Below, one piece after another: positions 13,670 to 47,050 of a stretch of DNA of 64,000 nucleotides (the first letter of the stretch is position 1; each line of letters opens with the position of its first letter). A program made the position numbers and the translations under genes. The notes beneath the pieces were generated by a model that ran no database searches, had not been told where the DNA came from, and saw only the letters and a program-made list of their open reading frames with translations. The stretch lies in NCBI GenBank assembly GCA_050734135.1, contig JBOHUG010000114.1, forward strand, positions 38,637 through 102,636. The letters are read 5' to 3'. Origin of the DNA: Candidatus Dormibacteria bacterium (GTDB lineage Bacteria > Chloroflexota > Dormibacteria > Aeolococcales > Bog-877).

Positions 13670-13706
13670 GAGCCGAGGGGAAGCTCGTGGCTGGTCGCTA
13701 GGGGGG

Positions 13707-13997
13707 ATGGTGGAACTGCTGGCGACCTTCAGCACCGGACTGGACAACGTGATCCACACGCTGACCGGCTTGGCCCTGGGCGCCGTGGCCGTCCTCTGCC
13801 TCAGCTTTGCGGCAATTCGTTACATGACCGCCCTGGACAACAGCCAGCGCCGCGCCGCCGCCGTCCAGGGCCTGGTCACCGTGCTGCTCGGCGTCCTTCT
13901 CCTGGTGAACGAGGGAGCGGTGTTGAGCTTCGTGGAGGGGCTCTCAGGGAGCGACACCGCCTGCACCACCAGCAGCTGCTCCGGCACCACCCACTGA
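13707..13997 (+). CDS. Small two-TM membrane protein, VirB2/TrbC pilin-like candidate
   Basis: 96 aa, two hydrophobic helices (LTGLALGAVAVLCLSFAAI; LVTVLLGVLLLV). It lies between the T4CP and the VirB6-like gene and has a paralog at 33416. Confidence 0.4.
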   Translation: MVELLATFSTGLDNVIHTLTGLALGAVAVLCLSFAAIRYMTALDNSQRRAAAVQGLVTVLLGVLLLVNEGAVLSFVEGLSGSDTACTTSSCSGTTH

Positions 13998-14084
13998 GAC
14001 CTGCCCACTGCCTTCCGGCTCGCGCTGCTGGCCGGCGCCTCCTGGGGGCTGGCGATCTCGTTCTCAGCGATAACCTCGACCACG

Positions 14085-16211
14085 GTGGTCATCCCAGCCG
14101 TGACCGCTGCCCGCGCGATCGTGACCATCTCAACACCCACCCCGAAAGCCACTCCGACGGCGAATCCAACCGCGACAGAAGATCAGACAACCGCCGGAAG
14201 CACCGACCAGCAGTGCGGCGGGATCACCGATCCCATGTGCTACATCGTGGATGCCTTCGTGAGCGGCCCTGTGGCCATCATGGGCAGCCTCGACGGCAGC
14301 CCGGACCCCGACCACGTCAGTGCTACCACGGGAGCGATCACCGCTGGCCCGTGGCGGATCGTGACCACCCTCGTCGGCAGCAACCCAGCGGTGGACAGCT
14401 ACAACGGCGCCTGGGGCGAGCCAGCGCACCAGTGCGGAGGTCAAGGCTGCATCCCATGGGTGCAGCAACTCAACTCGATCCTGGGGCCGCTTTCGCTGAG
14501 CCTGCTGGTGCTCGCCTTCGCGATTCAGGCCACCCTCTTCATGATCGGCCAGCAGCTGAACTTGCGAGCCGGCCTCGTGCCCTGCCTGATCGCCGCCGGA
14601 ATCATCGGCGCTGGGCTGCCGCTGCACTTGGCCGGACGGGTGATTGACGCCGGTACCTGGGCCTCTCAGGCTCTGCTTGAGACCACCTTTGAGCACCTGG
14701 GCGACCAGAGCGGGCAGCCGATCGATCTGATGACCTGGCTGGCGATGACCGCCTACTGCCCCGAGGACAGTCCACTAGCCCACCCTGGAATCCACCTCTC
14801 CACCCCCGGCCCCACACCAGCTGAACAGGTGCTGGTCCAGCCCTGGATGGACCCCCAATTCACCCAGTCACACTGCATCGGCTCCGACAGCCCTGACTTC
14901 ACCAAGGAGGTTCTGGACCGCAGCGAGAACTTCTCCGGGCCCCCGCTGCACGACGCCAATTGCGACCGCGGAGACGCAGTTCCTGCCCAGTCACTCTGCA
15001 CCAACACCGACAACCAGGTCAACAACAATGCCGGCCAGGAGTGCCTGGAGGGGAGCGGCGGTGCCGACTTGCCTGGCGAGCAGCTGAACGCCTTGCCATT
15101 AGCGGGGGAGCCGCGGGCCGGGAACGGTCAGAGCCCCGGTGACTGCCGCTACGCGGACATCTACTGGGGTACGGTTCCCACCTTCACCGACGTGTGGAAG
15201 GGGGTCGGTCCCCACGGCCGGAATGGGTACGACGTTCCGGATGGAATCCAGGGGATGGTGGCCTTCACGGTACTGACCGGTCTGGCCCTCTGGCTGGCGC
15301 TTACTTATCTGGCTCGCTATCTCGCCTTGGCTGTATTGGCAGGCTGTTCCAGCCTCGCGTTTTTGCTTCTGGCCCTGCCGGGCGGCCGGCCGGCCTTCGC
15401 GCGCTACTGGCGGACGGTGGCGGAACTCTCTGCGGTAGTCGTGGTCCAGACCCTGGTCTTCCTAGTTTTCGTGGCTATCGTGACCACCGTCTCGGGGCTA
15501 TCTCCCAACCCAGCCGCGGCCCATCTCGGAGGCTGCCCTTTGATCTCGGCCAACGCTACTTGTGGAGCCAGCTCCACAGGTCTCCTGGGCGAGGTGGGCA
15601 GTGGTGACCCGGGTGACCAGTTCGCCAAGTGCCTGCTGGCGATCGTCACGGTATGGCTGATGCTGGAGGTGCCGAAGCGAATCAGCCGGGGCGAGATGGC
15701 GACCACCGGCGGACTCCGGACGCTGGCGGCCGCCTCGGGCGGTGCCCTCCTGGGTGGATTGGCAGTGGCCCGGGGCCAGTTGCAACCTCGGGTCGCGCGG
15801 TTCGGATCCCAGGCGGTGCCTACTGGCCGCTCATTGCTCGGCCGCACTGGTCCCAGAGAACACCAACTGGCGGATAGGCTGGAACGGGGGGAGTCCATCG
15901 GAGCGGCGGCGTGGCCCCAGGCGACGGGGCGTGAGACTCGCGAGCAGTACATCGGCCGCTCCTTGCTGGGTGCCAAGGGGACCCGGCCGGAGCTCCACCG
16001 CCTCCTCGGGCTCAGCACCGCGGATCTCAGCGCCATGCGCGAGCGCGCGGCCCAGGATCCCTCGGTCTGGGCTGATCTGGGCCGAAACTACGTGGCTGGC
16101 GGGGGCAGTCGGGTCCACGAGCTGGATGCTGCTTATCTCAACGCTCTCCGGCGGGGCCGACTGCATCGGGACTCCGACCCGCCCCACCGCGACCCGAGCG
16201 GCACTACCTGA
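14085..16211 (+). CDS. Polytopic membrane protein, VirB6/TrbL/TcpH-like T4SS channel component candidate
   Basis: 708 aa with a Cys-rich extracytoplasmic N-terminal region, a block of 5 or more TM helices (LARYLALAVL...PAFARYWRTV...VVQTLVFLVF) and a cytoplasmic tail. Its position matches a T4SS module, and it has a paralog at 33660. Confidence 0.5.
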   Translation: MVIPAVTAARAIVTISTPTPKATPTANPTATEDQTTAGSTDQQCGGITDPMCYIVDAFVSGPVAIMGSLDGSPDPDHVSATTGAITAGPWRIVTTLVGSNPAVDSYNGAWGEPAHQCGGQGCIPWVQQLNSILGPLSLSLLVLAFAIQATLFMIGQQLNLRAGLVPCLIAAGIIGAGLPLHLAGRVIDAGTWASQALLETTFEHLGDQSGQPIDLMTWLAMTAYCPEDSPLAHPGIHLSTPGPTPAEQVLVQPWMDPQFTQSHCIGSDSPDFTKEVLDRSENFSGPPLHDANCDRGDAVPAQSLCTNTDNQVNNNAGQECLEGSGGADLPGEQLNALPLAGEPRAGNGQSPGDCRYADIYWGTVPTFTDVWKGVGPHGRNGYDVPDGIQGMVAFTVLTGLALWLALTYLARYLALAVLAGCSSLAFLLLALPGGRPAFARYWRTVAELSAVVVVQTLVFLVFVAIVTTVSGLSPNPAAAHLGGCPLISANATCGASSTGLLGEVGSGDPGDQFAKCLLAIVTVWLMLEVPKRISRGEMATTGGLRTLAAASGGALLGGLAVARGQLQPRVARFGSQAVPTGRSLLGRTGPREHQLADRLERGESIGAAAWPQATGRETREQYIGRSLLGAKGTRPELHRLLGLSTADLSAMRERAAQDPSVWADLGRNYVAGGGSRVHELDAAYLNALRRGRLHRDSDPPHRDPSGTT

Positions 16212-16600
16212 TGCAGGCCGAGGTGCCGCAGCCGATTTCGGGAGTTCCGCTGCGCTGGGGGGGATTCACGGTTCGACAGCTGGGCTGGATCGCCATCGGA
16301 GCCGCTCTGCCGTACGTCTTGCTCCGTTTACAGCTGGCGCCCGAAGTCGCACTGGCCGCGCCCGCCCCGTGGTTGGTCGTGGCGCTGTGCTTTGCCGTCG
16401 GCCGACGAGAGGGCCGACAGCTGGACTCCTGGGTCGCGGATTGGCTCCGGTTCCGGCTCCAACCCCGCCGCCTCCGGCACCCCGGGAAGCAGACCACCAG
16501 CACTCGCCGCGAGGCGTTTATCGCCGTCGATCAAGGGATCGCGGCTGAGAGGGCTGGGCGGCTCCCGGGAGCCCGAACCCTCCCCTGGGTAGACCCTTGA
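16211..16600 (+). CDS. VirB3/PrgI/TcpE-like small membrane protein
   Basis: 129 aa, two TMs followed by GRREGRQLDSWVADWLRF. It lies immediately upstream of and overlapping the VirB4 ATPase gene, the classical VirB3 position. Confidence 0.5.
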   Translation: MQAEVPQPISGVPLRWGGFTVRQLGWIAIGAALPYVLLRLQLAPEVALAAPAPWLVVALCFAVGRREGRQLDSWVADWLRFRLQPRRLRHPGKQTTSTRREAFIAVDQGIAAERAGRLPGARTLPWVDP

Positions 16601-18894
16601 TCCTGGCCAGGCCACCGGCGCCGCGAGGCTCCACCCTGCAGCTGGTCGATGTCGAATTTCTGGAGAACCAGGTCGCCCACCTGTCCAACGGGGCGCAGCG
16701 GGCAGCGCTTCAGATTGAGCCAGTGAACCTAGCCCTGCAGGGAGAGGTGGAACAGGAACAGGTTTGGCGTCGCTATCGCCAGTTGCTGGCGGCCCTCACC
16801 GGTCCGGTTTCGATCTACTCGTCGTCGAAACCCGAGCCCGGCGGGGAGGAGTGGCATCCGTCCGCAGCCGGTGATGGGCCCATCCAGCTGCTGGCTCGCC
16901 AGGATCTCGAATTCTGCCAGCAGTTGATCCGTGGACACCTGGTGCAGAAACAGCGCCACCTCGTCGTGGTCTGGGGCGGCGAGCTGGCTAACCCACTGGC
17001 CGGGCTCAGCAGTCGGCTAGATCGGCTAAGAACGAGGGCGAAGAGCCATACCCGCGTCCTGGGAGGCGGCATCCAGGTCGGGTTGGACCAGCGCTGCGAG
17101 GTGATCGCGGCCAGCCTCGGTCAACTGGGAGCTCGAGCGCGTCGGATCGGCGACGGCGAGTGGCTGCAACTGCTGCAGGAGCACGGTTCCGGCCGCAGTG
17201 ACCGCGAACCGGTCAGTTTCGCCAGCTGGGTTGCGCCGGATGACGCGGAGGTGCTGGCGCGGCAGGTCAGGGTGGGAGACCGCTGGAGCCGAACCCTCTT
17301 CGTCGCCTCCTACCCAAGGCGGGTGGCTATTGGCTGGCTGGCACCGCTGCTCCGGGGCCTGGAGTGTGAGGTGACGGTGGCTCAGCACCTGGTGCCACTT
17401 CCCAAGCTGCTCAGCTTGAGCCGGCTTCGGCGCAAGATTCGCGGATTTGAGACCAGCCTGGTCGTCGACCACCTGCGCGGTCAGCGGCCGGACCGGGGCA
17501 CCGAGACGGCCCTTGGCGATGCGCTGACTCTGGAGGAGCAGGTGCTGGTCGAGGAGGAGCGACTCTTCCAGCTGGAGCTCTTCGTGACCTTGGCGGCAGA
17601 GACCGTCGCCATTCTCGACAGCGGTTGGCAGCAACTCTTGACCACCATGGCTGAGCTCGGCTGTGGAGCGGTACCGCTCACTCACCGGCACATAGACGGC
17701 TGGCGAGCCACTATCCCGACCGGCGTAAGTCCCTTCGGCTGGGGCCGAGAGATGACGGCGAGTGCCTTGGCGACAGGGTTCCCTTTCTTGCGGAGCAATC
17801 TCGCGGCCGACACCGGGGTGCTGCTCGGTCCCAGCCTGATCTCGAGAGAGCTGGTCATCGTGGACCCCTTCGCCCATACCAATCCCAACTTCAACATCGT
17901 GGTCCTCGGCACCTCCGGAGGTGGGAAGTCGTACACCGCCAAGCTCTTGGCGGCGCGACTGGCCCTGCGGGGCTGCCGGCTGCGCTGCATCGACCCCGTC
18001 GGCGAGTACCGCGAACTGGGGCGGCTTCTCGATGGAGCCTGTCGCGATATCGCTCCCGGCCGCAGCTCTGGGCTCAGCGCCCTGGGACCGGCAGGAGTTG
18101 AGGGGGACGGAGCGGCGGCGGCCTCGGTACGGGCCGCGCGAGCGCTGGTGGTCTTGGAACTGCTGGCAGCCGGCAGATCCGGGGAATGGGATCTGCCGGA
18201 AGACGATGCTGAGGCCTTGGAGGCGACGCTGACCCAGCTGTTTTCGGCGCAACAGGATCCCCAGCTCCCGGACCTGGTAGCAGCCCTGGAGGAGGCTGGC
18301 CGGTCAGTACTTGCCCGTCGATTGGGTCGCTTCACCGGGGGGCTGCTGGGCGGAATCTTCGACGGTCGTGCCGGGGCCGAGCTCGCCGGCCTCGCGACCG
18401 TCTTCTCACTGGCGGGATGGGGCGGAGACCGGGAGCAGCTGCTGGCTCCAGCGATGCAGATGATCCTGCTGCAGCTGGAGTCGGAGACCTCTCGGGATCA
18501 GAGCGCTCTGCGCCTGGTTGTCGTCGACGAGGCTGAAGTTCTCCTGGGCCGACCCCGGAGCGCGGCCGCCCTTGAGGCCCTGAGCCGCCGGGTTCGCAAG
18601 CTGGGGACCGGACTGATGGTGATCTCCCAGGTGGTTGAGGACTTTCTCAACTCTCCCGTCGGGAATGTGATCGTCCGAAACTGCCACACCAAATTGCTCC
18701 TCCGCCAGGAGGAGGTGGCCATCCCGGCGGTTCGGGCGGCCTTTGGACTCTCCCCAGCGGAGTGCGACCTGCTCCGGGACGCACCTCCCGGGTGCGGCAT
18801 CGTCATCGCCGGACGGGAGCGAGCCGCCTTTCAGGGAGCGGCGCCGCCGGCACTCCACCAGGTGCTCTGTACTGACGCGGAGGCACTCGGTTGA
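16597..18894 (+). CDS. VirB4/TrbE/TcpF-family conjugation ATPase
   Basis: 765 aa; Walker A VVLGTSGGGKSY, the VirB4-typical IDPVGEY motif and Walker B VVVDEAEVL. Confidence 0.8.
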   Translation: MILARPPAPRGSTLQLVDVEFLENQVAHLSNGAQRAALQIEPVNLALQGEVEQEQVWRRYRQLLAALTGPVSIYSSSKPEPGGEEWHPSAAGDGPIQLLARQDLEFCQQLIRGHLVQKQRHLVVVWGGELANPLAGLSSRLDRLRTRAKSHTRVLGGGIQVGLDQRCEVIAASLGQLGARARRIGDGEWLQLLQEHGSGRSDREPVSFASWVAPDDAEVLARQVRVGDRWSRTLFVASYPRRVAIGWLAPLLRGLECEVTVAQHLVPLPKLLSLSRLRRKIRGFETSLVVDHLRGQRPDRGTETALGDALTLEEQVLVEEERLFQLELFVTLAAETVAILDSGWQQLLTTMAELGCGAVPLTHRHIDGWRATIPTGVSPFGWGREMTASALATGFPFLRSNLAADTGVLLGPSLISRELVIVDPFAHTNPNFNIVVLGTSGGGKSYTAKLLAARLALRGCRLRCIDPVGEYRELGRLLDGACRDIAPGRSSGLSALGPAGVEGDGAAAASVRAARALVVLELLAAGRSGEWDLPEDDAEALEATLTQLFSAQQDPQLPDLVAALEEAGRSVLARRLGRFTGGLLGGIFDGRAGAELAGLATVFSLAGWGGDREQLLAPAMQMILLQLESETSRDQSALRLVVVDEAEVLLGRPRSAAALEALSRRVRKLGTGLMVISQVVEDFLNSPVGNVIVRNCHTKLLLRQEEVAIPAVRAAFGLSPAECDLLRDAPPGCGIVIAGRERAAFQGAAPPALHQVLCTDAEALG

Positions 18895-19580
18895 TCCCGA
18901 AGGGTTCCTGGCTAGCTGCCCTGGCTCTGGGCGGCTGCACCGTCCCTCTCCTCATCGGGATAGCCCTCCTGGGGCTCCTCTCGGCGGGGGCGGTGGCGGC
19001 CGGCTGGAGCTCGGTCAGCGACCTGCTGCCAGAACCTGGGGGGTTCATGCTCCCCGTCGGTGCCGACATCCCGGACGGGTCGGTCGGCTTTCCCGTCTGG
19101 GCTCTCCCCTGCGGGCCGGAGCCGGGTGCGCTGGCAGTCGATCCCAGCAGCTGCACCGGCTCGCCCAACCCGTTCCCCGCGGACTACCAGGGTTTCGCCA
19201 CCGGGCAGTGCACCTGGTACGTCGCCACTCGTCGCCGGGTGACCTGGCACACGTCCTCTGGGGAGCTGGGCGGGAATGCGGGGCAATGGCTGCAGCTGGC
19301 GTCCGATTCCGGCTACGAAGTGGGCCCCGACCCGCAGGTGGGCGCCATCGCCGTCTACACCGACGCTGGCGCGGGTCATGTCGCGCTGGTGGTCGGGGTC
19401 GCCGCCTCAGGAAACTACACGGTGGCGGAAGCCAACTGGGTGTTTCTCGGTCCGCGGGCGCCCTACGTGGACTTGCGCGGGGTCGCTGCCGGGACGACAG
19501 GCGATGTCTTCGAGAAGTTGGCCGGCTTCATCTACGGTCCCCAGCAGGCTGGTCCGGGGGCGAACGGCACCCTATCCTGA
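18891..19580 (+). CDS. Membrane-anchored CHAP-domain peptidoglycan hydrolase (VirB1-analogue of Gram-positive T4SS)
   Basis: N-terminal TM, then CHAP catalytic Cys motif GQCTWYVA and His region GHVALVV. Translationally coupled to virB4 (ATGA overlap). Confidence 0.75.
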   Translation: MIPKGSWLAALALGGCTVPLLIGIALLGLLSAGAVAAGWSSVSDLLPEPGGFMLPVGADIPDGSVGFPVWALPCGPEPGALAVDPSSCTGSPNPFPADYQGFATGQCTWYVATRRRVTWHTSSGELGGNAGQWLQLASDSGYEVGPDPQVGAIAVYTDAGAGHVALVVGVAASGNYTVAEANWVFLGPRAPYVDLRGVAAGTTGDVFEKLAGFIYGPQQAGPGANGTLS

Positions 19581-23080: not shown

Positions 23081-23093
23081 TGTGGGAGGACGT

Positions 23094-24092
23094 ATGCGCG
23101 GAGCCCGCTTTGCTGGGCGCGCCTGGCTTGCTGCCGGCGTGGCCGGATTGGTATGGGTCTCCTCGATCTTTGGACCGGGCCTCGGAGCCGTAGCTCAGCA
23201 ATCGACCGACGCTGCCAACCAGCAAGCTCTCACGAACCTCCTCAATCAGTTGGAGGCCCAAGGAGAGGTCGCCAGCGCCAGCTCGGTCAGGATCCTGCTG
23301 ACAAAGATTGAGGCGAACCAAGAGGCGCTCAACTCGCTGAATCAGCAGTTGAGCACCGACCAAACGACCCAGCAGGTGCTGCAGGTTCAACTGTCCGGCG
23401 ATCGCCAGGCCTTGATCAGTCTGGTCAGCACCGCCTACGTCGACGGAAACGGGGCTGCCGAAGTCGCCACCGCCCTGGCCTCCCCTGACATGACCCAATT
23501 TTTCGACAACTCCACCCTGCCTGACGCCATCGCCTCCCAGGTGGCTCAGCTGGTGAACTCGATTCAGCACGATCAGCAGTCCATCGCCAAAGCGCAGCAG
23601 CAGCTTCTCGCCGATGAGGGCAGCGCCCAATCGATCCAGGGTCAGCTGGGGATCCAGTCCAACGAGCTGTTGGCCGAGCTAGTCCACCCGTCCGCCGCCG
23701 TCGGCACGGGCGACTGGGCCTTCGCCTTCGGTACCTGCACCTACTGGGCGGCGGGCCAGTGGCGGGCCAACGGCTGGGACGTCAACTGGGGTGGGGATGC
23801 CTACCAGTGGTGGGCCAATGCCGCCGCCGCCGGCCACGCGGAGGGCAGCACTCCTGAAGTGGGCGCGATCGTGGTCTGGCCGCCGGATTCAGGAGGGGCG
23901 TCGGACGCGGGTCATGTCGCCTACGTCACCGCGGTCGACGTGCCTGGCGCCGGCTCCCCCAACAACTTTGAAGTCTCCGAGATGAACTACTACGGCAACG
24001 GCGGAGGCTTCGACAAGGTCGACTACCGGGTTGTTCCGGACTCGGGCTCCGGCTTCGACGGGTTCATCTACCCGCCCAGCGGCGGCTCGTGA
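23094..24092 (+). CDS. Secreted coiled-coil + CHAP-domain peptidoglycan hydrolase (PcsB/RipC-like)
   Basis: Signal peptide, ~180 aa Q/L-rich heptad region, then C-terminal CHAP (FGTCTYWAAGQW...GAIVVW...GHVAYV). The ATG at 23094 has a GGGAGGA RBS. Confidence 0.75.
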   Translation: MRGARFAGRAWLAAGVAGLVWVSSIFGPGLGAVAQQSTDAANQQALTNLLNQLEAQGEVASASSVRILLTKIEANQEALNSLNQQLSTDQTTQQVLQVQLSGDRQALISLVSTAYVDGNGAAEVATALASPDMTQFFDNSTLPDAIASQVAQLVNSIQHDQQSIAKAQQQLLADEGSAQSIQGQLGIQSNELLAELVHPSAAVGTGDWAFAFGTCTYWAAGQWRANGWDVNWGGDAYQWWANAAAAGHAEGSTPEVGAIVVWPPDSGGASDAGHVAYVTAVDVPGAGSPNNFEVSEMNYYGNGGGFDKVDYRVVPDSGSGFDGFIYPPSGGS

Positions 24093-24093
24093 G

Positions 24094-24729
24094 GTGGCGC
24101 AGCTAACCTGGCCGGCCTACACGCCCAGGGTCGCCCTCACCCTCCGAAACGATGAGAAGACCCCGGCGCGGCGGCTCCCGTTGCTGGCCAGCCGGCTCCG
24201 CTGGATCCTGGCCGCGTCGGTGCTGCTGGTCAGCACACCGGTGCTGGGTGCGCTGGCGACAGGCGGCGCCTCAGGGCCACCCTCTACGGCCCCGGCGGCA
24301 ATTGCGCAGGTGGCCAGCCAGGCCCGCAGCATTCTCTCCGTCACCGACTATCAGGTGACCCTGCCGCTCCAGGAAGCCCAGGTACTGCCGCCGCCGCCAC
24401 CACCGGCCGTGGCGGCGGGAATGCCCTTCGGTTCAGCGTTCTGGCAGGCGGTGCCGGAACCTCCAACCGGCACCATCATGCAGATCATCTGGTCGGCGGC
24501 CCAGCAGTACAACGTCTCGTACACCTGGCTACTCGGTGTGGCTCAGTGCGAATCGGGCCTGAATCCCACCGACGTCAACAGGTCCTCGGGTGCCAGCGGC
24601 CTCTTCCAATTCATGCCAGCGACCTTCCATGCCCACGGGGGCACCGATATCTGGGACCCGGTGCAGCAGTCCGACATCGCCGCCAAAATGTTCTCGATCG
24701 GCGAGTCGGGGGAGTGGGTCTGCAAGTAG
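24094..24729 (+). CDS. Lytic transglycosylase (SLT domain) protein
   Basis: Signal/TM (RWILAASVLLVSTPVLGALA), Pro-rich linker, then SLT motifs AQCESGLNP...SGASGLFQFMPATF. Start assigned to the GTG at 24094 immediately after the preceding stop. Confidence 0.65.
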   Translation: MAQLTWPAYTPRVALTLRNDEKTPARRLPLLASRLRWILAASVLLVSTPVLGALATGGASGPPSTAPAAIAQVASQARSILSVTDYQVTLPLQEAQVLPPPPPPAVAAGMPFGSAFWQAVPEPPTGTIMQIIWSAAQQYNVSYTWLLGVAQCESGLNPTDVNRSSGASGLFQFMPATFHAHGGTDIWDPVQQSDIAAKMFSIGESGEWVCK

Positions 24730-28283: not shown

Positions 28284-28377
28284 ACCCCCGCATGAGTTCC
28301 AGCGGAACTCATGCTACGCTGGGAGAGTTCCGGCGCGAGTCGGCGGGGGTCCCTGCGGCTACCCCTGTTTCTGTGAT

Positions 28378-28860: not shown

Positions 28861-28884
28861 CAAGATCCCGAGAGCCAGCCGGCG

Positions 28885-29277
28885 GTGAGCTCCATTGGCG
28901 AGCCTGATCCCTTGGCTCCCCCGCCCGACCTCCTGGCGCTGCACGGGTTGCGATTCTTCGGACACCACGGGGTCTCCGCCGCCGAGAGACGGGCTGGCGG
29001 TGAGTACACCGTCGACCTGGAAGTTGTCGCTGACCTGGTGCGCGCCCAGGCGACCGACGAGGTAGCTGACACCGTGAATTACGTCGACCTCTACGAGGCG
29101 GTCCGCGAGGTGGTGGAAGAGAAGCAATTCCATCTGGTGGAGGCCATGGCGTCCCAGATCGCCGCGGCGGTGGTGAAGCTGCCCAAGGTGAAGCGGGTTC
29201 GCCTCCGGGTGACGAAGCCGCCCCGGCTGCCCGGTCAAACGGTTGGCTTCGCTGTGGAGGTAGTCCGAGTCCCCTGA
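28885..29277 (+). CDS. folB: Dihydroneopterin aldolase
   Basis: LHGLRFFGHHGV...ER motif and ~120-130 aa size typical of FolB. Confidence 0.8.
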   Translation: MSSIGEPDPLAPPPDLLALHGLRFFGHHGVSAAERRAGGEYTVDLEVVADLVRAQATDEVADTVNYVDLYEAVREVVEEKQFHLVEAMASQIAAAVVKLPKVKRVRLRVTKPPRLPGQTVGFAVEVVRVP

Positions 29278-29295
29278 CCACGCCCCCCAACCCGG

Positions 29296-30222
29296 ATGGT
29301 CGGCGGACTGCAGATGCGCGGGACCGGCTCGCCCTCAACCATGGACAATCTTCGATTTGCGGACAACCTTGACGGTGAGGCCGTGGTCGCTCTGGGCCTG
29401 CCAGCGCCGCGGCTCGTCCTGCTGGGGCTGGGAGCCGCGAGCGCCTGGGCTGCGGGTGGGCTGCCGCTCCCCGATCCGCTGCGCCTGGGCGCGGCCGGGC
29501 TTGTGGCGCTGGTAACCGCCAGGTGGGCCTGGGGCAGGGTCAGGGGAGTGTCGCTCGCCCGCTGGAGCTGGCTGGCTCTCGGGTACGTCAGCCGGTCAGT
29601 AACCGCAGTGAAGCCGAGTGACTGGCAGAGTCTGGAAGCTGAGTTCGACACCACCCCGAGGCCGGAGCTCCGGGCCGCGATCCCGAGCGCCAAGGCCGTC
29701 GCCTTTGTGGCTATGCGGTCGGGAGTCGGCTGCACTTCAGTCTGCCGGGCCGTCGCGAGCCAGCTTCTGGTTGCGCCCCAGCCGGCCCTGGCCGGAAGTC
29801 GGCTTGAAGAGGCCGGTGCCAAGTGGATCCCGGCGGATCTTCAGGGCAGCTCGTGCCCCCCGTTGCTGCTCTGCGATTGGGGCGCCGGAGCGCAGAACCT
29901 GCCACCTCAATCTCAGGTGGTGGGGCTGATCTTGGTCTGGGGAGGGGAGGAGGACGCCCCTGGTGCCCTCAGAACCAAGGTACTGAATCTGCACCAAAGT
30001 TTCCCCGGCGTCGAAGTGCTGGCAGTACTCAACCGAGCCGGCGCAGCCGCTGTTTTGAGCACCCGCATCGCCAGCGCCGGAGCCCGCTTGGCGGCCACGA
30101 TTCCCGTCGACCCACAGCTGGGCGAGTCGAACCTCGGCCAGCGCCGTTCCGCTGACTCACCGTCGGCGCTGGGAGTCAGCCTTCTGGCCCGGGAGGTACG
30201 CGCTCTCTCCCACTCCTGGTGA
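29296..30222 (+). CDS. VirB3/PrgI-like membrane protein with ~200-aa C-terminal extension (module B)
   Basis: Two N-terminal TMs followed by WGRVRGVSLARWSWLALGY, paralleling GRREGRQLDSWVADWLRF of ORF 16211. It lies immediately upstream of and overlapping the second VirB4-like ATPase. Confidence 0.4.
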   Translation: MVGGLQMRGTGSPSTMDNLRFADNLDGEAVVALGLPAPRLVLLGLGAASAWAAGGLPLPDPLRLGAAGLVALVTARWAWGRVRGVSLARWSWLALGYVSRSVTAVKPSDWQSLEAEFDTTPRPELRAAIPSAKAVAFVAMRSGVGCTSVCRAVASQLLVAPQPALAGSRLEEAGAKWIPADLQGSSCPPLLLCDWGAGAQNLPPQSQVVGLILVWGGEEDAPGALRTKVLNLHQSFPGVEVLAVLNRAGAAAVLSTRIASAGARLAATIPVDPQLGESNLGQRRSADSPSALGVSLLAREVRALSHSW

Positions 30223-32213
30223 GGTCCCTGGCGACGGGCGGCGGACAACCCCGGACCCGGCGCATCCAGGCTCCCGACATTCTCGACCTGGTCGACTCGG
30301 AGCGGCGGAAGCGGGCAGCCGAGCTGGAGACCTGGCTGGAGCAGTTGCAGCTACCTGTCGCATTTCTCATCTGCTCTCGCCGCGAGACTACGGATGATCC
30401 CCTCGCGGGGTTGGCCCCCGGACGAGCTTCGAGTCGGCTGCAGGCTGCCATGGAGGATTATCTCGCCGATCAAACTCGGCGCCGCCCCAGGTTTCGGAGG
30501 ACCGTGTTCCTTGCCCTCTCCGATCTCGGGTCCGATGGAGAGATGGCGCCGTCTGGACCGGGCTGGATTGTCTCCCCTGACCGACCGGCTCCGCTGGCTG
30601 AGGGTCTCTGGCGAGAGCGCCCGACACTCCTGAGAGTTGGAGGGCGGTACCTGAGTTCGGTTTGGATTGAGCGGTTGCCGGGAATTGAAGTCGCTCCCGG
30701 GTGGCTGTGGGCTCTGGTCGGAACTCCGGGTGAGTTCGACCTGATCCTGAGCATTTGGCCCCAGGCCAAAGGTGCAGCAGACCGGTCATTGCGCCGCCGC
30801 ATGGTGGGACTGCGCGCCAGGGAGCTGGCCGCCGGCCAGCGCGGTGAGGACGGGGACCCTCGACTGCGCGCAGCACTGGACTCGGCGGCGCGGCTCCGAG
30901 AGGTACTGGCTCGATCCGAGGGCAAGCTCTTCGACCTAGCGATCACCGCTACCTTGGGCGCCGACACCGCGAACCACACCCGGGAGCTGGTCCACGACCT
31001 GCAGTCCCGAGTGGCGGCCCTGAGAGCAGGGCTCGCACCGGCCTGGTGCAGTCCGGGCCCTGCCCGCCTCCAGACCCAGCTGCTTCCGACCGACCCACTC
31101 GGACCGAGGCGGGTGGTGCAGAGTGGCGAACTCGCCACCTTGTGGCCCTGGCTCGACGACTGGGACGGAAAGACGATGGGCGCGGTTCACCTGGGGCGGC
31201 ACCTGCGGACAGGCGCTCCGGTCTGGTTGAAGCTCCATGATCCAACAGCTCTTCCGAATGCCAACTTGGGGGTGGTGGCAGCCTCCGGCAGCGGTAAGTC
31301 CTACCTCGGCGGTTTACTCGGACTCGAAGCCGTCTGCCTGGGCGTCCGAACCGTCGTTCTGGATCCTGAAAACGAGCATCGTCGATGGTGCGAGGCGGTC
31401 GACGGTCAGTACCTCTCGCTCGGTGATTCCCGGCCTAGCGGATTCAACTTGCTGGAGATGGCGGAGCCGGGAGAGGCTCCGAGTGCGGTCGCCGAACTGA
31501 TCTCCCTCCTCTGTGGACGGCTGTCGCCGGCGGAGATCGGCCAGGTCTCCGACGCTGTGAGGTGGGTGCTCGCTGAAGCCGGGACCGGCTCAGCGGTGCT
31601 CTCCGATTGTCTCCCCCGACTGCGCCGAACCGAAGCGGGCGAGACGGTCGCCCACCGGCTGCTGCCCTGGCTGGACGGGACCGCAGGGGCACTCTTCAAC
31701 TCCGCGGGGCGGGGGCCGGAGGTGATGACGACCACCGCGGTTGGACTCCGCGAACTCCCCTCGGCCTGGCTCCCCGCCGCCACCCTGCTGGTCTCGCACT
31801 GGCTCTGGCGCTGGATCCGTTTTCAGGGGGGTCGGAAGCAGGCGATCGTGGACGAGGCCGGGTTGTTGGCGGACAACGCCCCCCTGCAGCGACTCATGGC
31901 CCACCTCGCTCGGCGGATCCGTAAATATCAGGGCTCTTTGGTGCTGCTCACCCAGTCCGCCGGCGACCTCCTCGGCAGCGCTCCCGGGGAGGTAATGGCA
32001 GTGAATTCAGCGACCATGCTGCTCGGCAGCCAGCACCCCGCAGCTGCCCTTCGGTTACAGCAGGGATTCCTCCTCGACGACGCCCAGCGACAATGGCTGG
32101 AGAGAGCCGGACGGGGCCAGTTTCTCCTGCTCTTGGGGTCCCGGCGGGCACCGATTCAGATCGAGGCCGCGTCCGAATATCACCAATTGCTCAGTTCCGA
32201 GAGCGACGACTGA
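30219..32213 (+). CDS. Second VirB4/TrbE-family ATPase (diverged paralog)
   Basis: 664 aa; Walker A VVAASGSGKSY, the VirB4-type VLDPENEH motif and Walker B AIVDEAGLL. Same overall layout as ORF 16597. Confidence 0.7.
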   Translation: MRSLATGGGQPRTRRIQAPDILDLVDSERRKRAAELETWLEQLQLPVAFLICSRRETTDDPLAGLAPGRASSRLQAAMEDYLADQTRRRPRFRRTVFLALSDLGSDGEMAPSGPGWIVSPDRPAPLAEGLWRERPTLLRVGGRYLSSVWIERLPGIEVAPGWLWALVGTPGEFDLILSIWPQAKGAADRSLRRRMVGLRARELAAGQRGEDGDPRLRAALDSAARLREVLARSEGKLFDLAITATLGADTANHTRELVHDLQSRVAALRAGLAPAWCSPGPARLQTQLLPTDPLGPRRVVQSGELATLWPWLDDWDGKTMGAVHLGRHLRTGAPVWLKLHDPTALPNANLGVVAASGSGKSYLGGLLGLEAVCLGVRTVVLDPENEHRRWCEAVDGQYLSLGDSRPSGFNLLEMAEPGEAPSAVAELISLLCGRLSPAEIGQVSDAVRWVLAEAGTGSAVLSDCLPRLRRTEAGETVAHRLLPWLDGTAGALFNSAGRGPEVMTTTAVGLRELPSAWLPAATLLVSHWLWRWIRFQGGRKQAIVDEAGLLADNAPLQRLMAHLARRIRKYQGSLVLLTQSAGDLLGSAPGEVMAVNSATMLLGSQHPAAALRLQQGFLLDDAQRQWLERAGRGQFLLLLGSRRAPIQIEAASEYHQLLSSESDD

Positions 32214-32234
32214 GGGTGGCGACGGTCTGGGGCC

Positions 32235-32873
32235 ATGAAGTTGGCACCCTCGGGTCCGAGTCTAGAATCATCCTTCATGGGCCGGGTGCTTTTTGTCCGT
32301 CTGACCAATCCCGGCCTGGCCGGCGGGGCCGAGTGGACCACGGCGGTGGCCAACTTCGCCGCCACCAGATCGTGGCATTCGGAGCCCTTCTGGCTCGCGA
32401 CAGATGACTCCCCGGGCCTCTTTGAGATGGAGTACCTGCGCCACCTGCGCCTGGAGAATCATGAGCCGATCTTCGGCGCTGGCTTCGTCCGCCTGGCAGG
32501 GGACGAGACGGACGCGCTGGCGGTCTATTTTGGGCTGCTAAAGCTGACGGGGAGGCTGGGCGGACGAGCTCTGGTGTTGGATCCCGACAACCCGATCCGC
32601 AAGCAGCGCCAGCTGGCTCTGGTAGAGGGTGAAGTGAGTGGACCTCGAAGCATCGACGAGGTGATGGTGGCGGGCCCGATCTTCAAGCGGCTGGCCGGCG
32701 GGACCATTACCTTCTACCCTCCGCGGTATCGCGGGGCGACCCTGCCTGGCCCCGTCGGCTTACCGGGGCAGTGGAGCTTCGCGATCCATGGGATGAAGGA
32801 CCACGCGCCCGGATTCCTAGAGGCGGAAGCCGAGGCGATGCGCATCTACCGCAGCCTGCGCGCCATCGGCTGA
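32235..32873 (+). CDS. Hypothetical protein
   Basis: 212-aa ORF directly after virB4-B with no recognisable motif. It occupies the position held by the CHAP hydrolase in module A. Confidence 0.4.
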   Translation: MKLAPSGPSLESSFMGRVLFVRLTNPGLAGGAEWTTAVANFAATRSWHSEPFWLATDDSPGLFEMEYLRHLRLENHEPIFGAGFVRLAGDETDALAVYFGLLKLTGRLGGRALVLDPDNPIRKQRQLALVEGEVSGPRSIDEVMVAGPIFKRLAGGTITFYPPRYRGATLPGPVGLPGQWSFAIHGMKDHAPGFLEAEAEAMRIYRSLRAIG

Positions 32874-32877
32874 TCCG

Positions 32878-33348
32878 TTGCGGGCTGTGGTGCAGCGGGT
32901 GGCGCGCGCCCGGGTCACTGTGGATGGCGAGCTGATCGCCGCCATCAGGGGTGGTCTGGCGATCTACCTGGGAGTCGGTCCCACCGACGAGCCGGCGGTT
33001 GCTCGACACTTTGCAGGACGTTTGGTGGAACTCCGCATCTTTCCCGATGCAGCCGGCAAGATGAACAAGTCCCTCCTGGCCGTTGGGGGTGAGGTACTTG
33101 TGGTCAGCCAGTTCACCCTCTTCGCCGATACTCGCCGGGGCCATCGGCCGGCGTTCACTGCGGCGGCCGACCCTGAGCGTGGGCTCGAGCTGTATCGGCT
33201 CTTCATCGACGAGCTCCGCCGCCTCGGGGTCGTCCGCGTGTCCCAGGGCCAGTTTGGCGCCCACATGCTGGTTGACTCCGTCAACGACGGACCAGTGACT
33301 ATCGTCGCCGCCACCTCCGAAGCTCCCTGGCTGGCCGACTGCGGCTGA
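32878..33348 (+). CDS. dtd: D-aminoacyl-tRNA deacylase
   Basis: MRAVVQRVxxAxVTV N-terminus, SQFTLFAD motif and NDGPVT C-terminal motif; ~150 aa. Confidence 0.85.
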   Translation: MRAVVQRVARARVTVDGELIAAIRGGLAIYLGVGPTDEPAVARHFAGRLVELRIFPDAAGKMNKSLLAVGGEVLVVSQFTLFADTRRGHRPAFTAAADPERGLELYRLFIDELRRLGVVRVSQGQFGAHMLVDSVNDGPVTIVAATSEAPWLADCG

Positions 33349-33415
33349 CGAGCGCCAGCGCTTTCCCCCAGCGGACATAGGGGAGGGAGCATCTCAGTCA
33401 GCAGGGGGTAGATTC

Positions 33416-33654
33416 GTGGGCGAGCTAAATTCATTGCTCAATTCCTGGGTTCTGATCGGACAGGGAATAATCGGCAGCCTAGGTACATTGGCGTTTGTCA
33501 GTGCCTTTGTCTGGCGCGTGGTTGCCCCCAACCCTCACAGTGCCATGGAGGCCCTAACGATGGTTGGGCCGGATCGCCGTCGGAACCCTGGGGGTGGAGC
33601 TGGCGGGCGTGCTCACCCACGTGCTGCTGGCGGCAGTCCCGCACAGCGTCGGCT
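33416..33654 (+). pseudogene. Pilin-like two-TM protein gene (paralog of 13707) interrupted by an apparent +1 frameshift
   Basis: Frame 2 gives MGELNSLLNSWVLIGQGIIGSLGTLAFVSAFVWRVV...AMEALT, then degenerates into low complexity. Frame 0 from ~33558 continues WLGRIAVGTLGVELAGVLTHVLLAAVPHSVG-stop, a second TM helix. Joined, the protein resembles ORF 13707 (MVELL...). Confidence 0.35.
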
Positions 33655-33659
33655 GAACC

Positions 33660-34562
33660 GTGGTCGCGCTGACCTTTCCCAGCTTTGACCTCCACCCCCT
33701 CTCCCTGTTCAACCATCTCATCAGCGGTGCCCTCACCGCCTTCGTGACGTCCTCTCGCGCCACCCTCGATGGAGCCCTCCGAACTTACCTGTTCGGTACC
33801 TACGACGCCGCCCATCCTCTTCGCCATCAGCCCTTCACTGATACCCCGGGCGTGGGGCAGCTGAACCACTTACTGCTGGGCGCCGGTGGCGCGCTGCTGG
33901 TAGCTGTGTTTCTCTACAGTTCGCTGCGCACTGTTGCCAGCGCCGGCGACGCGCGCCACCACCTGCAGATCGTCCTGCCCCGTGTGCTCGTGGCGCTCGC
34001 GTTGGCTGTTGTTAGCCTGCCGTTGCTTCAGCAGGCCGTCGATCTGAACAACGCCCTCAGCGCAGTGGTGAGCGGCGGAGCCGACCTTAACCTGGCCCAG
34101 TTACCGTGGAGTTCACCGCTGAGTGGTTCCGCATTGCGGTCTGCTTCGACCAACGTCTTTTTGCTGCTTTTCGCTGCCGCGCTGGTGCTGGCACTGGTGA
34201 TCTTGGTGCTTGCCTACGTGGTGCGGTACACGCTGCTAGCCGTGCTGTGTGCCACTGCCCCGCTGGCGGCGATCGCCTGGATTCTCCCGGAAACGCGGGG
34301 TTTCTCCCGTCAGTGGCTGCGTCTCCTGGTGATCACTCTTTTCATGCAGTTTGGTCAGCTGCTAGTACTTCGCAGCGCCATCGCTCTCGCATTCGCGCGC
34401 GGGCACGGGGTGATCGGGATTCTGTATGCATTCGCCGCCCTTTACTTGATGCTACGCGTTCCCGGCGCCCTCAACGTGGCGGCCCACTACGGGTCCAGTG
34501 CGGAGGGGGCCGGCCGCCGCTGGGCGCGGGCGGCACGGCGGTCGGCGACAACTGAGGTCTAG
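33660..34562 (+). CDS. Polytopic membrane protein, VirB6/TrbL-like paralog (module B)
   Basis: 300 aa, 6 or more TMs. The motif block VVRYTLLAVLCATAPLAAIAWILPETRGFSRQWLRLLVITLFMQFGQLLV aligns with LARYLALAVLAGCSSLAFLLLALPGGRPAFARYWRTVAELSAVVVVQTLV of ORF 14085. Confidence 0.5.
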   Translation: MVALTFPSFDLHPLSLFNHLISGALTAFVTSSRATLDGALRTYLFGTYDAAHPLRHQPFTDTPGVGQLNHLLLGAGGALLVAVFLYSSLRTVASAGDARHHLQIVLPRVLVALALAVVSLPLLQQAVDLNNALSAVVSGGADLNLAQLPWSSPLSGSALRSASTNVFLLLFAAALVLALVILVLAYVVRYTLLAVLCATAPLAAIAWILPETRGFSRQWLRLLVITLFMQFGQLLVLRSAIALAFARGHGVIGILYAFAALYLMLRVPGALNVAAHYGSSAEGAGRRWARAARRSATTEV

Positions 34563-43673: not shown

Positions 43674-43750
43674 TGGTACCCCGTAGCGGATTCGAACCGC
43701 TGATCTCCGCCTTGAGAGGGCGGTGTCCTTGGCCACTAGACGAACGGGGC
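43674..43750 (-). tRNA. tRNA-Glu (anticodon CUC)
   Basis: Reverse complement reads GCCCCGUUCGUCUAGUGGCCAAGGACACCGCCCUCUCAAGGCGGAGAUCAGCGGUUCGAAUCCGCUACGGGGUACCA. 7-bp acceptor, D and T arms (GGUUCGAAUCC), anticodon loop CUCUCAA, encoded CCA. Confidence 0.85.
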
Positions 43751-46982: not shown

Positions 46983-47050
46983 CGCGATTGAAGGGTGGGT
47001 TTCGCCCGACCCCTAGACTCGAACTCGTGGATCCCCAGGCGGCGGCCACC

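What the first reader, a model, noticed from the sequence alone, without database searches (positions are those of the whole stretch)
29296..34562. Second, rearranged and partly decayed paralogous T4SS-like module ~10 kb downstream
A second set of homologues occurs in a different order and is interrupted by dtd and an unknown gene. It comprises:
- a VirB3-like protein with extension (29296);
- a second VirB4 ATPase (30219; SGSGKSY, LDPENEH, IVDEAG);
- a pilin-like gene (33416);
- a VirB6-like protein (33660).

Pairwise similarity to module A is visible by eye:
- MVELL versus MGELN pilin N-termini;
- the LARY.LAVL...P..R.F.R.W block in both VirB6-like proteins;
- the G-R-x-x-G-x-x-L-x-x-W-x-x-W-L block after TM2 in both VirB3-like proteins.

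Module B has no coupling protein and no CHAP hydrolase. The pair could be an ancient duplication with subfunctionalisation (two VirB4 motors in one machine), or a decaying second element.
Basis: partly seen in the sequence, partly recalled or inferred. Interest (0 to 1): 0.8.

Follow-up and report, generated by a model that had tools for sequence, protein, structure and literature searches.

The report
Conserved second type IV secretion core
The second set of type IV secretion genes is real, but it is an ancient chromosomal module kept in the same place across Candidatus Dormibacterota soil bacteria, not a decaying copy, which suggests these uncultured bacteria use a domesticated secretion or DNA-transfer machine with two very different motors.

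Summary
The window is a chromosomal segment of a Candidatus Dormibacteria genome assembled from a metagenome.

**What module B (29296-34562) contains**
- A PrgI/VirB3-like two-helix membrane protein, fused to a ParA/MinD-like domain that has lost its P-loop lysine.
- A VirB4 ATPase with intact Walker motifs.
- An unrelated conserved gene (X198), then dtd.
- A 79-aa two-helix pilin-like gene.
- A TrbL/VirB6-like protein.

**Similarity to module A**
- Clearly significant only for the VirB4 pair (29% identity, E=2e-26).
- Weak for VirB6.
- Only transitive for VirB3.
- Absent for the pilins.

**Conservation**
- The region from ctaB to ispH, including module B, keeps its order in 35 Dormibacterota loci, down to 41% VirB4-B identity.
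- Module A lies upstream in the same order on every contig long enough to show it.
- No relaxase or integrase is in the window.
- The pilin-like gene is the most conserved gene of the region.

**Relationship of the two motors**
- In my trees the two VirB4s are never sisters.
- VirB4-B belongs to a separate deep clade, usually paired with PrgI-ParA fusions.

**Decay**
- The only sign is a 1-nt insertion (T33555) that frameshifts the pilin-like gene in this genome alone.

Verdict: "decaying second element" and "recent duplicate" are both rejected. This is an ancient, selectively maintained second core of a domesticated type IV secretion system (T4SS).

The parts
29296..30222 (+). B3B: a PrgI/VirB3-like N-terminus with two membrane helices (about aa 16-100), fused to a degenerate ParA/MinD-like domain. 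The P-loop reads 'RSGVGCTS', so the lysine is lost. The gene's end overlaps the VirB4-B start by 4 nt.
   Evidence: - No direct Pfam hit; one of four orthologues hits PrgI at E=0.0055.
- hhalign of 12 orthologues against the L049 PrgI+CbiA/ParA fusion: probability 96%, E=4.6e-9, columns 16-165 including the P-loop.
- The B3B HMM hits the fusion proteins at E=1e-10 to 1e-24. The module-A PrgI HMM hits nine of those same proteins at E=1.4e-6 to 3e-3.
- The extension is present only in closer relatives. Distant orthologues are 97-131 aa.
30219..32213 (+). VirB4-B: a VirB4-family ATPase of 664 aa
   Evidence: - Pfam P-loop_TraG, AAA_10 and DUF87.
- NCBIfam VirB4-type models at E about 1e-18.
- PDB 4AG5, a VirB4 C-terminal domain, at E=8e-26.
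- Walker A S356/G357/G359/K360/S361 and Walker B D545/E546 are invariant in 22 orthologues.
- 29% identity to VirB4-A, E=2e-26.
32277..32873 (+). X198: a conserved cytoplasmic protein of unknown function. An alternative start lies at 32235. It is probably not a T4SS component.
   Evidence: - No Pfam or NCBIfam hit.
- 238 homologues. Some lie outside any T4SS context, and one is linked to dtd in L012.
- A promoter-like site lies at 32241-32268.
32878..33348 (+). dtd (D-aminoacyl-tRNA deacylase), a housekeeping gene embedded in the module
   Evidence: Pfam Tyr_Deacylase at E=1.8e-50. It holds the same position in all 32 loci that cover it.
33416..33656 (+). pilB: a 79-aa pilin-like protein with two membrane helices, frameshifted in this genome by an extra T at 33555
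   Evidence: - Intact at 79/79 aa and 77-97% identical in all 32 relatives that cover it. It is the most conserved gene of the region, median 88.6%.
- The insertion is also present in L001 and L002; the sequence is shown.
- No Pfam or NCBIfam hit.
- Two predicted membrane helices.
- It ends 3 nt before the VirB6-like gene, mirroring the pilA-B6A order of module A.
33660..34562 (+). B6B: a TrbL/VirB6-like polytopic membrane protein of 300 aa
   Evidence: - Pfam TrbL_4 at E=6.5e-13, above its cut-off.
- About 5-6 hydrophobic segments.
- Median identity 72.6% across 32 loci.
- Weak profile match to the module-A 708-aa protein, E=5.8e-5.
23082..24729 (+). CHAP2 (23082-24092) and an SLT transglycosylase (24031-24729): candidate VirB1-like cell-wall hydrolases lying between the modules
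   Evidence: Pfam CHAP at E=1.5e-14 and SLT at E=5.6e-11. Each has an N-terminal membrane anchor. Their position is conserved in 28 loci.
11951..19580 (+). Module A:
- VirD4, 11951-13669
- T4SS_pilin-like gene, 13707-13997
- 708-aa VirB6-like gene, 14085-16211
- PrgI, 16211-16600
- VirB4-A, 16597-18894
- CHAP1, 18891-19580
   Evidence: Pfam hits. The 708-aa protein hits TrbL_4 weakly in 3 of 4 orthologues. Order and context are the same in L009-L011.

Best explanation
**What it is.** Module B is a functional, vertically inherited second core of a domesticated chromosomal type IV secretion system (T4SS) that characterises Candidatus Dormibacterota. No relaxase lies in this window. Module B is neither a decayed copy nor a remnant of a mobile element.

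**Shown**
- Its four T4SS-type genes are kept in the same housekeeping context across the lineages sampled. They are the PrgI/VirB3-like anchor, the VirB4 motor, the 79-aa two-helix pilin-like subunit and the TrbL/VirB6-like channel protein.
- The ATPase motifs are intact.
- The two membrane subunits are under very strong constraint.
- VirB4-B belongs to a deep clade of its own (B plus 'B-like'). Its members are typically preceded by a PrgI-ParA/MinD fusion gene.

**Inferred mechanism**
1. B3B tethers a VirB4-B hexamer to the membrane, as VirB3/PrgI does in known systems.
2. VirB4-B uses ATP to extract or load pilB subunits at the B6B channel.
3. The membrane-anchored CHAP2 and SLT enzymes, encoded 5 kb upstream, open the peptidoglycan.
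4. Every core part (pilin, B6, B3, B4) exists in an A version and a B version, but there is only one VirD4. I therefore think B most likely builds its own VirD4-independent channel or fibre, working beside the VirD4-containing A machine. It could serve uptake or surface-structure assembly, as in ComB or the archaeal Ced/Ted systems. I think this more likely than B acting as a second motor inside A.

**This genome.** The extra T at 33555 would truncate pilB. It is either a strain-specific inactivation or an error in the read set.
For: **Taxon**
- All 52 VirB4-B clusters (43-100% identity) that carry a meaningful name are Dormibacteria/Dormibacterota MAGs.

**Synteny**
- The order ctaB-hemE-CHAP2-SLT-M20-MR_MLE-u235-u135-u157-folB-B3B-VirB4B-X198-dtd-pilB-B6B-...-ispH is found in 35 genome loci and in L003-L008.
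- Module A lies about 13 kb upstream on the same contigs.
- At least 12 contigs carry both modules, judged by matching contig lengths.

**Selection**
- Walker A and B residues are invariant.
- Median identities: pilB 88.6%, ispH 83.3%, B6B 72.6%, dtd 62.8%, VirB4-B 57.2%.

**Not a mobile element**
- The flanks and the rest of the 64 kb are housekeeping genes, with no relaxase or integrase found.
- GC content is even across the window.

**Deep divergence of the two motors**
- Cross-HMM scores are 108-182 bits between the A and B families. Generic VirB4s score 225-400 bits against each profile.
- In NJ trees, A has 100% support, B plus B-like 100%, and A+B 0/100 and 1/60.

**Identity of B3B**
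-.

**Known parallels**
- Patescibacteria have a chromosomal T4SS that mostly lacks a relaxase (PMC12102498).
- The archaeal Ced/Ted importers consist of VirB4, VirB6 and a pilin, plus ParA/MinD in Ted (PMC9905601).
Against: - There are no expression or functional data.
- pilB has no detectable homology to any pilin family. 'Pilin-like' rests on size, two helices and position.
- pilB is frameshifted in this genome, so module B may be inactive here.
- No VirB8-like component was identified.
- Nothing shows whether B works alone or with A.
- 'B-like' VirB4 loci in other lineages lack a nearby pilB or B6B, so the four-gene module may be specific to one part of the phylum.
- The trees are neighbour-joining, without reference sequences of the named MPF classes, and B sits on a long branch.
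- A relaxase could be encoded elsewhere in the genome.
Confidence: 0.55

Rival explanations
1. One composite machine: the A and B proteins co-assemble into a single T4SS with two different VirB4 motors and mixed VirB6 and pilin subunits.
For: - Both modules sit in one conserved super-locus on the same strand, with a single VirD4 and hydrolase genes lying between them.
- The two modules show the same rank order of conservation: pilin > VirB6 > VirB4 > VirB3.
- Rickettsiales rvh systems also keep duplicated VirB4 and VirB6 genes in scattered islands (PMC2653234, PMC4676284).
Against: - All four core parts are duplicated, not only the motor. That is what two separate channels would need.
- The A and B partners are so diverged that mixed assemblies seem less likely: there is no pilin similarity and VirB3 similarity is only transitive.
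- There are no interaction data.
Confidence: 0.25
2. Module B is the decaying remnant of a second conjugative element that integrated downstream of module A.
For: - pilB carries a frameshift in this genome.
- The ParA-like domain of B3B has lost its P-loop lysine.
- Module B has no VirD4 or relaxase.
Against: - Position and order are identical in 35 loci, down to 41% VirB4-B identity.
- pilB is intact in all 32 relatives and is the most conserved gene of the region.
- ATPase motifs are invariant.
- There is no integrase, no compositional break and no tRNA at the borders. The only tRNA in the window is at 43674.
Confidence: 0.03
3. Module B is a recent duplication of module A within the lineage, followed by rearrangement.
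For: The VirB4 pair is significantly similar. Both modules hold the same four kinds of gene.
Against: - A and B are each closer to generic VirB4s than to each other.
- The A+B clade appears in 0/100 and 1/60 bootstraps.
- B groups at 100% with a separate 'B-like' clade that has its own PrgI-ParA partner.
Confidence: 0.04
4. The B genes have been co-opted for a non-secretory envelope function, such as membrane or cell-wall organisation. This would explain their co-transcription with folB, dtd and other housekeeping genes.
For: - Genes from 27168 to 34562 form a tight same-strand array with very short gaps, mixing housekeeping and T4SS-type genes.
- The window is rich in cell-wall enzymes: PBP1a, three CHAP proteins, an SLT and a glucosaminidase.
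- The two small membrane proteins are extremely conserved.
Against: No precedent was found for a VirB4/VirB6 pair outside transport or fibre assembly. The active-site conservation of VirB4-B fits a translocation motor.
Confidence: 0.1

Closest known systems
Monoderm (MPF_FATA-type) conjugative T4SS, e.g. pCF10 PrgH/PrgI/PrgJ/PrgK/PcfC and CTn-type elements
   Same: - The part list matches: a VirB4 ATPase preceded by a PrgI/VirB3-like protein, a VirB6/TrbL-like polytopic protein, CHAP and SLT hydrolases, and VirD4 in module A.
- VirB4-A scores best against the NCBIfam CD1110-type VirB4 model (168 bits).
- Both VirB4s match the Thermoanaerobacter VirB4 structure 4AG5.
   Different: - It is chromosomal, vertically inherited and interleaved with housekeeping genes.
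- No relaxase or integrase is in the window.
- There are two full core sets.
- VirB4-B is far more divergent (65.8 bits to the same model) and sits in its own clade.
- Small two-helix pilin-like genes are present.
- B3B carries a ParA/MinD-like domain.
Chromosomal T4SS of Patescibacteria, which mostly lacks a relaxase (PMC12102498)
   Same: [quoted passage not shown]
- Their T4SS is also FATA-related and chromosomal, usually without a relaxase.
- It has VirB2-like pilins, PrgI and VirB6 near virB4, and a function other than conjugation has been proposed.
   Different: - A phylum-wide pair of deeply diverged VirB4 core modules is not described there, nor a PrgI-ParA fusion.
- The low-GC, probably Patescibacteria, VirB4s fetched here did not group with B or with A.
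- Patescibacteria pilins are highly variable arrays, whereas the two pilin-like genes here are near-invariant.
Archaeal Ced/Ted DNA-import systems (PMC9905601) and the H. pylori ComB system (the latter from my own knowledge)
   Same: They are domesticated T4SS derivatives built from a VirB4-like ATPase, a VirB6-like channel and a small pilin, without a relaxase. Ted loci also carry a ParA/MinD-family ATPase. This composition matches module B.
   Different: - No sequence relationship to Ced/Ted was detected for module B. Only VirB4-A gave a hit, a 24.8-bit match to CedD.
- DNA uptake is an analogy, not a tested function.
- A VirD4-containing sister module sits next door.
Rickettsiales vir homolog (rvh) T4SS (PMC2653234, PMC4676284)
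   Same: It is a vertically inherited chromosomal T4SS with duplicated components, including two divergent VirB4 paralogues and several VirB6 copies. The genes are scattered in islands among housekeeping genes.
   Different: rvh is a diderm P-type system in obligate intracellular Alphaproteobacteria, with an outer-membrane core complex. It has no evolutionary link to the monoderm-type genes here.

Membership tests
Type IV secretion system (defined by VirB4) | VirB4-family ATPase with functional Walker A and B motifs | tested here: met
   - Pfam P-loop_TraG, AAA_10 and DUF87 above cut-off.
- NCBIfam VirB4-type models at E about 1e-18, though below their equivalog cut-offs.
- PDB VirB4 4AG5 at E=8e-26 and TrwK at 7e-9.
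- Motif residues invariant.
Type IV secretion system (defined by VirB4) | VirB3/PrgI-like small membrane protein encoded next to virB4 | tested here: met
   - The direct A-versus-B comparison is not significant.
- B3B is homologous to PrgI+ParA fusions: hhalign probability 96%, E=4.6e-9.
- The B3B HMM hits those fusions at E down to 8e-24, and the module-A PrgI HMM hits nine of them at E down to 1.4e-6.
- Pfam PrgI matches the L049 fusion at E=7.6e-4 and one B3B orthologue at E=0.0055.
Type IV secretion system (defined by VirB4) | VirB6/TrbL-like polytopic channel protein | tested here: met
   Pfam TrbL_4 at E=6.5e-13, 49.1 bits against a cut-off of 27. Multiple hydrophobic segments.
Type IV secretion system (defined by VirB4) | VirB2/T4SS_pilin-family subunit | tested here: inconclusive
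   - pilB has no Pfam or NCBIfam hit even at E<=10 and no profile similarity to pilA.
- The only support is 79 aa, two membrane helices and its position directly upstream of the VirB6-like gene.
Type IV secretion system (defined by VirB4) | Coupling protein (VirD4/T4CP) | tested here: not met
   None lies in 29296-34562 or its conserved flanks. The only VirD4 in the window is in module A, 11951-13669. Some known T4SSs lack a T4CP (PMC12102498).
Conjugative element (ICE or plasmid-derived island) | Relaxase, integrase or recombinase, and variable presence or position among relatives | tested here: not met
   - Pfam scans covering most predicted genes of the 64 kb (about 55 of 64, including all long ORFs) found no relaxase or integrase domain.
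- The position is fixed in 35 loci.
- The rest of the genome was not examined.
MPF_FATA class of T4SS | VirB4 falls inside the FATA clade in a phylogeny with class references | tested here: inconclusive
   - No labelled MPF-class reference set was available.
- VirB4-A nests among unnamed generic relatives, including a Streptomyces protein.
- VirB4-B plus B-like forms a separate clade with 100% support.
MPF_FATA class of T4SS | VirB8-like (PrgL/TcpC, NTF2-fold) component | not tested
   Pfam found no such protein.
Ced/Ted-type DNA importer | DNA import function; homology to CedA/CedA1/CedB or TedA/B/C | not testable with these tools
   Only the composition is similar (PMC9905601). Module B gave no sequence match; the only hit was a 24.8-bit match of VirB4-A to NCBIfam CedD.

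The most novel reading that the evidence does not exclude
Dormibacterota carry a phylum-wide, vertically inherited, domesticated T4SS super-locus with no relaxase, built from two anciently diverged core modules. Its B-type motor, together with a PrgI-ParA/MinD fusion partner, would define a previously undescribed VirB4 lineage. That lineage would run a VirD4-independent apparatus for DNA uptake, cell-cell exchange or fibre assembly. It would be a free-living, soil-dwelling counterpart of the essential T4SS of the related Patescibacteria and of the archaeal Ced/Ted systems.
Probability: 0.3. Interest if true: 0.8.

Novelty: new variant of a known kind. Interest (0 to 1): 0.6.

Why it matters
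- **An uncultured phylum with a dedicated machine.** Dormibacterota are abundant in soil, permafrost and Antarctic deserts, and nothing is known of how they exchange DNA or interact with other cells.
- **Evidence of importance.** A T4SS locus fixed among housekeeping genes across the sampled lineages, with near-invariant small membrane subunits, suggests the machine matters to their biology and is not cargo of a mobile element.
- **Parallels.** It would join Patescibacteria, the archaeal Ced/Ted systems and the Rickettsiales rvh system as a case of domesticated conjugation machinery.
- **A natural comparison.** It offers two co-resident, highly diverged VirB4/VirB3/VirB6/pilin sets for studying partner specificity.
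- **A new partnership.** The pairing of a B-type VirB4 with a PrgI-ParA fusion appears undescribed in the literature I could search.

Tried and rejected
- **B3B structure.** Single-sequence AF2 gave pLDDT 38.7 and is unusable.
- **PDB profile searches.** The B3B profile found nothing. The B6B profile found only spurious transhydrogenase helices.
- **Pilin pair.** BLASTP, hhalign, Pfam and NCBIfam all gave nothing.
- **Names for B-like VirB4s.** Cluster look-ups returned few names, all Candidatus Dormibacteria.
- **Metagenome scan.** The first attempt, with a too-diverse alignment, failed. The second worked.
- **pilB and B6B near B-like VirB4s.** None lie within 10 kb.
- **Patescibacteria link.** I tested whether the low-GC, probably Patescibacteria, VirB4s group with B or with A. 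They group with neither.
- **Promoter and terminator scan.** It was uninformative apart from one promoter-like site before X198.
- **Programmed +1 frameshift at CUA-A in pilB.** I considered this and rejected it as unsupported, because all 32 orthologues are in frame.

Full report
**Source and gene map**

The window has about 67% GC, spread evenly. The exact VirB4-B protein is encoded in a MAG named Candidatus Dormibacteria, GCA_973417115.1, and in a Logan assembly of SRR27067711.

Gene calling by codon-position GC, together with Pfam scans, gives a chromosomal, housekeeping landscape. It includes fumC, PBP1a, ctaB, hemE, folB, dtd, ispH, glpX, pckA, icd, dinB and proS. Two groups of T4SS genes are embedded in it.

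- Module A (11951-19580) runs VirD4, T4SS_pilin-like, a 708-aa polytopic protein, PrgI, VirB4-A and CHAP.
- Module B (29296-34562) runs a 308-aa membrane protein, VirB4-B, an unknown 198-aa protein, dtd, a small two-helix ORF and a TrbL_4 protein.
- A CHAP gene and an SLT gene (23082-24729) lie between the modules.
- No relaxase or integrase domain was found among the predicted genes scanned, which cover most of the 64 kb. The only tRNA is at 43674.

**Checking the observation**

- VirB4 pair: clearly homologous, with 29% identity over 571 aa and E=2e-26.
BLASTP gives E=0.009. Profile-profile comparison gives E=5.8e-5 and probability 66% over 45 columns. The module-B protein hits TrbL_4 strongly. 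The module-A protein hits it only weakly, in 3 of 4 orthologues.
- VirB3 pair: not significant directly.
- Pilin pair: no similarity at all.

The pilin-like ORF is mis-delimited. Orthologues encode a 79-aa protein. In the window the same reading frame is broken after residue 46 by one extra base, T33555. The conserved C-terminal helix continues in the next frame and ends at 33656, 3 nt before the TrbL gene. The insertion is identical in the NCBI MAG and in the Logan contig. These may derive from the same reads.

**Conservation in relatives**

- VirB4-B has 52 homologue clusters at 43-100% identity. Every one with a meaningful name is from Dormibacteria/Dormibacterota.
- VirB4-A has a parallel set of 59 clusters.
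- Contexts fetched around distant members and a scan of species-representative genomes (35 loci) show one conserved order: plsY-fumC-...-PBP1a-response regulator-VirD4-pilA-B6A-PrgI-VirB4A-CHAP1-...-ctaB-hemE-CHAP2-SLT-M20-MR_MLE-u235-u135-u157-folB-B3B-VirB4B-X198-dtd-pilB-B6B-...-ispH.
- The 35 VirB4-B-centred loci cover the stretch from ctaB to ispH. The part from plsY through module A is seen in the three VirB4-A-centred loci.
- The two modules lie about 13 kb apart on the same contigs in the window and in two other genomes (L003/L009 and L007/L010). At least 12 contigs carry both, judged by matching contig lengths.
- pilB is intact (79/79 aa) in all 32 loci that cover it.
- Median identities to the window are: pilB 88.6%, ispH 83.3%, CHAP2 76%, B6B 72.6%, X198 70.7%, dtd 62.8%, VirB4-B 57.2% and B3B 55.3%.
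- Walker A, Walker B and other motif residues of VirB4-B are invariant across 22 orthologues.

Module B is therefore maintained by selection and inherited vertically. 'Decaying second element' is rejected. The single frameshift in pilB is the only decay, and it is specific to this genome.

**What the 308-aa protein is**

Its first ~115 residues are conserved in all relatives. The C-terminal ~190 residues occur only in the closer ones; distant orthologues are 97-131 aa.

A divergent 'B-like' VirB4, P0126, is preceded by a 388-aa protein. Pfam reads that protein as PrgI (E=7.6e-4) plus a CbiA/ParA domain (E=5e-8).

- The B3B alignment matches this fusion with probability 96% and E=4.6e-9 across the two helices and into the P-loop strand.
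- In that strand the window has 'VAFVAMRSGVGCTSV', aligned to 'VTFFSLRGGTGRSTL' in the fusion.
- The rest of the alignment shows the usual ParA/MinD landmarks..LLL.DWG....LVLVWDG....LNRA....IP.D...
- The P-loop lysine is replaced, so this is probably a pseudo-ATPase.
- A metagenome scan showed the PrgI-ParA gene upstream of the B-like VirB4 in nearly every locus where the upstream flank is present.
- An HMM of B3B hits these fusions at E=1e-10 to 1e-24.
- An HMM of the module-A PrgI hits nine of the same proteins at E=1.4e-6 to 3e-3.

This gives transitive support that B3B is a PrgI/VirB3 homologue.

**How the two VirB4s are related**

- Cross-scoring with family HMMs shows that A and B are each more similar to generic monoderm-type VirB4s than to each other. 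Generic VirB4s, including a Streptomyces protein, score 225-400 bits against each profile. A and B score 108-182 bits against each other's profile.
- A whole-library profile search found a graded set of 'B-like' proteins. The few that carry names are Candidatus Dormibacteria.
- In neighbour-joining trees, A is monophyletic at 100% and B plus B-like at 100%. An A+B clade appears in 0/100 and 1/60 bootstraps.
- Low-GC VirB4s, probably from Patescibacteria, group with neither.
- VirB4-A scores 168 bits against the NCBIfam CD1110-type model. VirB4-B scores 65.8 bits.
- Both match the solved VirB4 domain 4AG5.

The pair is therefore not a local duplication. It represents two deeply separated lineages that have co-resided since early in this group.

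**The inserted genes**

X198 has no family assignment. Its homologues also occur outside T4SS contexts, and in one case next to dtd. A confident model has no informative structural neighbour. I regard X198 and dtd as housekeeping passengers inside the array. They may have their own promoter.

**Interpretation**

All four core parts exist in two versions, and there is one VirD4. Membrane-anchored CHAP and SLT enzymes are conserved between the modules. No relaxase is nearby.

The best reading is a domesticated chromosomal T4SS super-locus, in which module B forms its own VirD4-independent assembly beside module A. A single composite machine is the main rival.

Published parallels:
- the chromosomal T4SS of Patescibacteria, which mostly lacks a relaxase (PMC12102498);
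- the archaeal Ced/Ted importers, built of VirB4, VirB6 and a pilin, plus ParA/MinD in Ted (PMC9905601);
- the duplicated, scattered rvh system of Rickettsiales (PMC2653234, PMC4676284).

Full-text searches found no description of a Dormibacterota T4SS.

**Limits**

- There are no functional data.
- The trees are distance-based and lack labelled MPF-class references.
- pilB is called pilin-like by topology and position only.
- The genome outside the window was not examined for a relaxase.

Noticed in passing
window 33555 (within 33416-33656): A single extra T frameshifts the otherwise near-invariant 79-aa pilB gene. It is present in the window, in GCA_973417115.1 and in the Logan assembly of SRR27067711, and absent from all 32 orthologues.
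   Followed up: yes
window 14085-16211: The module-A VirB6-like protein (708 aa) has a cysteine-rich region of about 250 residues between two clusters of hydrophobic segments (about aa 129-183 and 387-475). It is 64-79% identical across distant genomes and has no Pfam match, so it may be a surface-exposed domain.
   Followed up: partly
window 13707-13997 and 33416-33656: Both small two-helix pilin-like proteins are the most conserved genes of their modules: 83-94% and 77-97% identity where the VirB4s are 41-52% identical. This is the opposite of the hypervariable VirB2 arrays reported in Patescibacteria.
   Followed up: partly
window 18891-19580, 23082-24729, 41028-42173, 45711-46982: Cell-wall hydrolases are unusually dense in the window: three CHAP-domain proteins (one with a long coiled coil), an SLT transglycosylase and a glucosaminidase, plus PBP1a at 9278-11362.
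   Followed up: no
window 27168-28860: Three conserved genes of unknown function (235, 135 and 157 aa) always sit between MR_MLE and folB, just upstream of module B. None has a Pfam hit, and they were not tested for VirB8-like folds.
   Followed up: no
window 32277-32873; L012:9742-11713; L013:10001-10717: X198 belongs to a family of about 240 clusters with no Pfam model. It is linked to dtd in another lineage and stands alone elsewhere. A confident AF2 model has no close structural neighbour.
   Followed up: partly
L049:6734-7900 and L050-L080: A PrgI (two-helix) plus CbiA/ParA/MinD fusion gene precedes nearly every 'B-like' VirB4 where the upstream flank is present. No TrbL or pilin gene lies within 10 kb. 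I did not find this pairing in the literature searched.
   Followed up: partly
L007/L010/L020 (contig_16369, 2.39 Mb) versus L008: The long contig shows many fragmented genes between SLT and folB. These genes are intact in the independent Logan assembly of the same organism, which suggests indel errors in that assembly.
   Followed up: no
L014, L018, L045 (record titles): Contigs with full Dormibacterota synteny are labelled Acidiferrales, Micrarchaeaceae archaeon and Nanopelagicaceae in their records. These are probably taxonomic mislabels.
   Followed up: no
window 16211-16600: The module-A PrgI gives weak NCBIfam matches to the N-termini of the SCO6880 family (Streptomyces) and of the type VII secretion protein EccE, both at E about 1e-3.
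   Followed up: no
window 11365-11853 (-), 46988-47410 (+), 38402-40042 (-): A receiver-only response regulator is conserved divergently upstream of VirD4. A second receiver-only regulator and a GGDEF protein lie downstream of module B. These are possible regulators of the locus.
   Followed up: no
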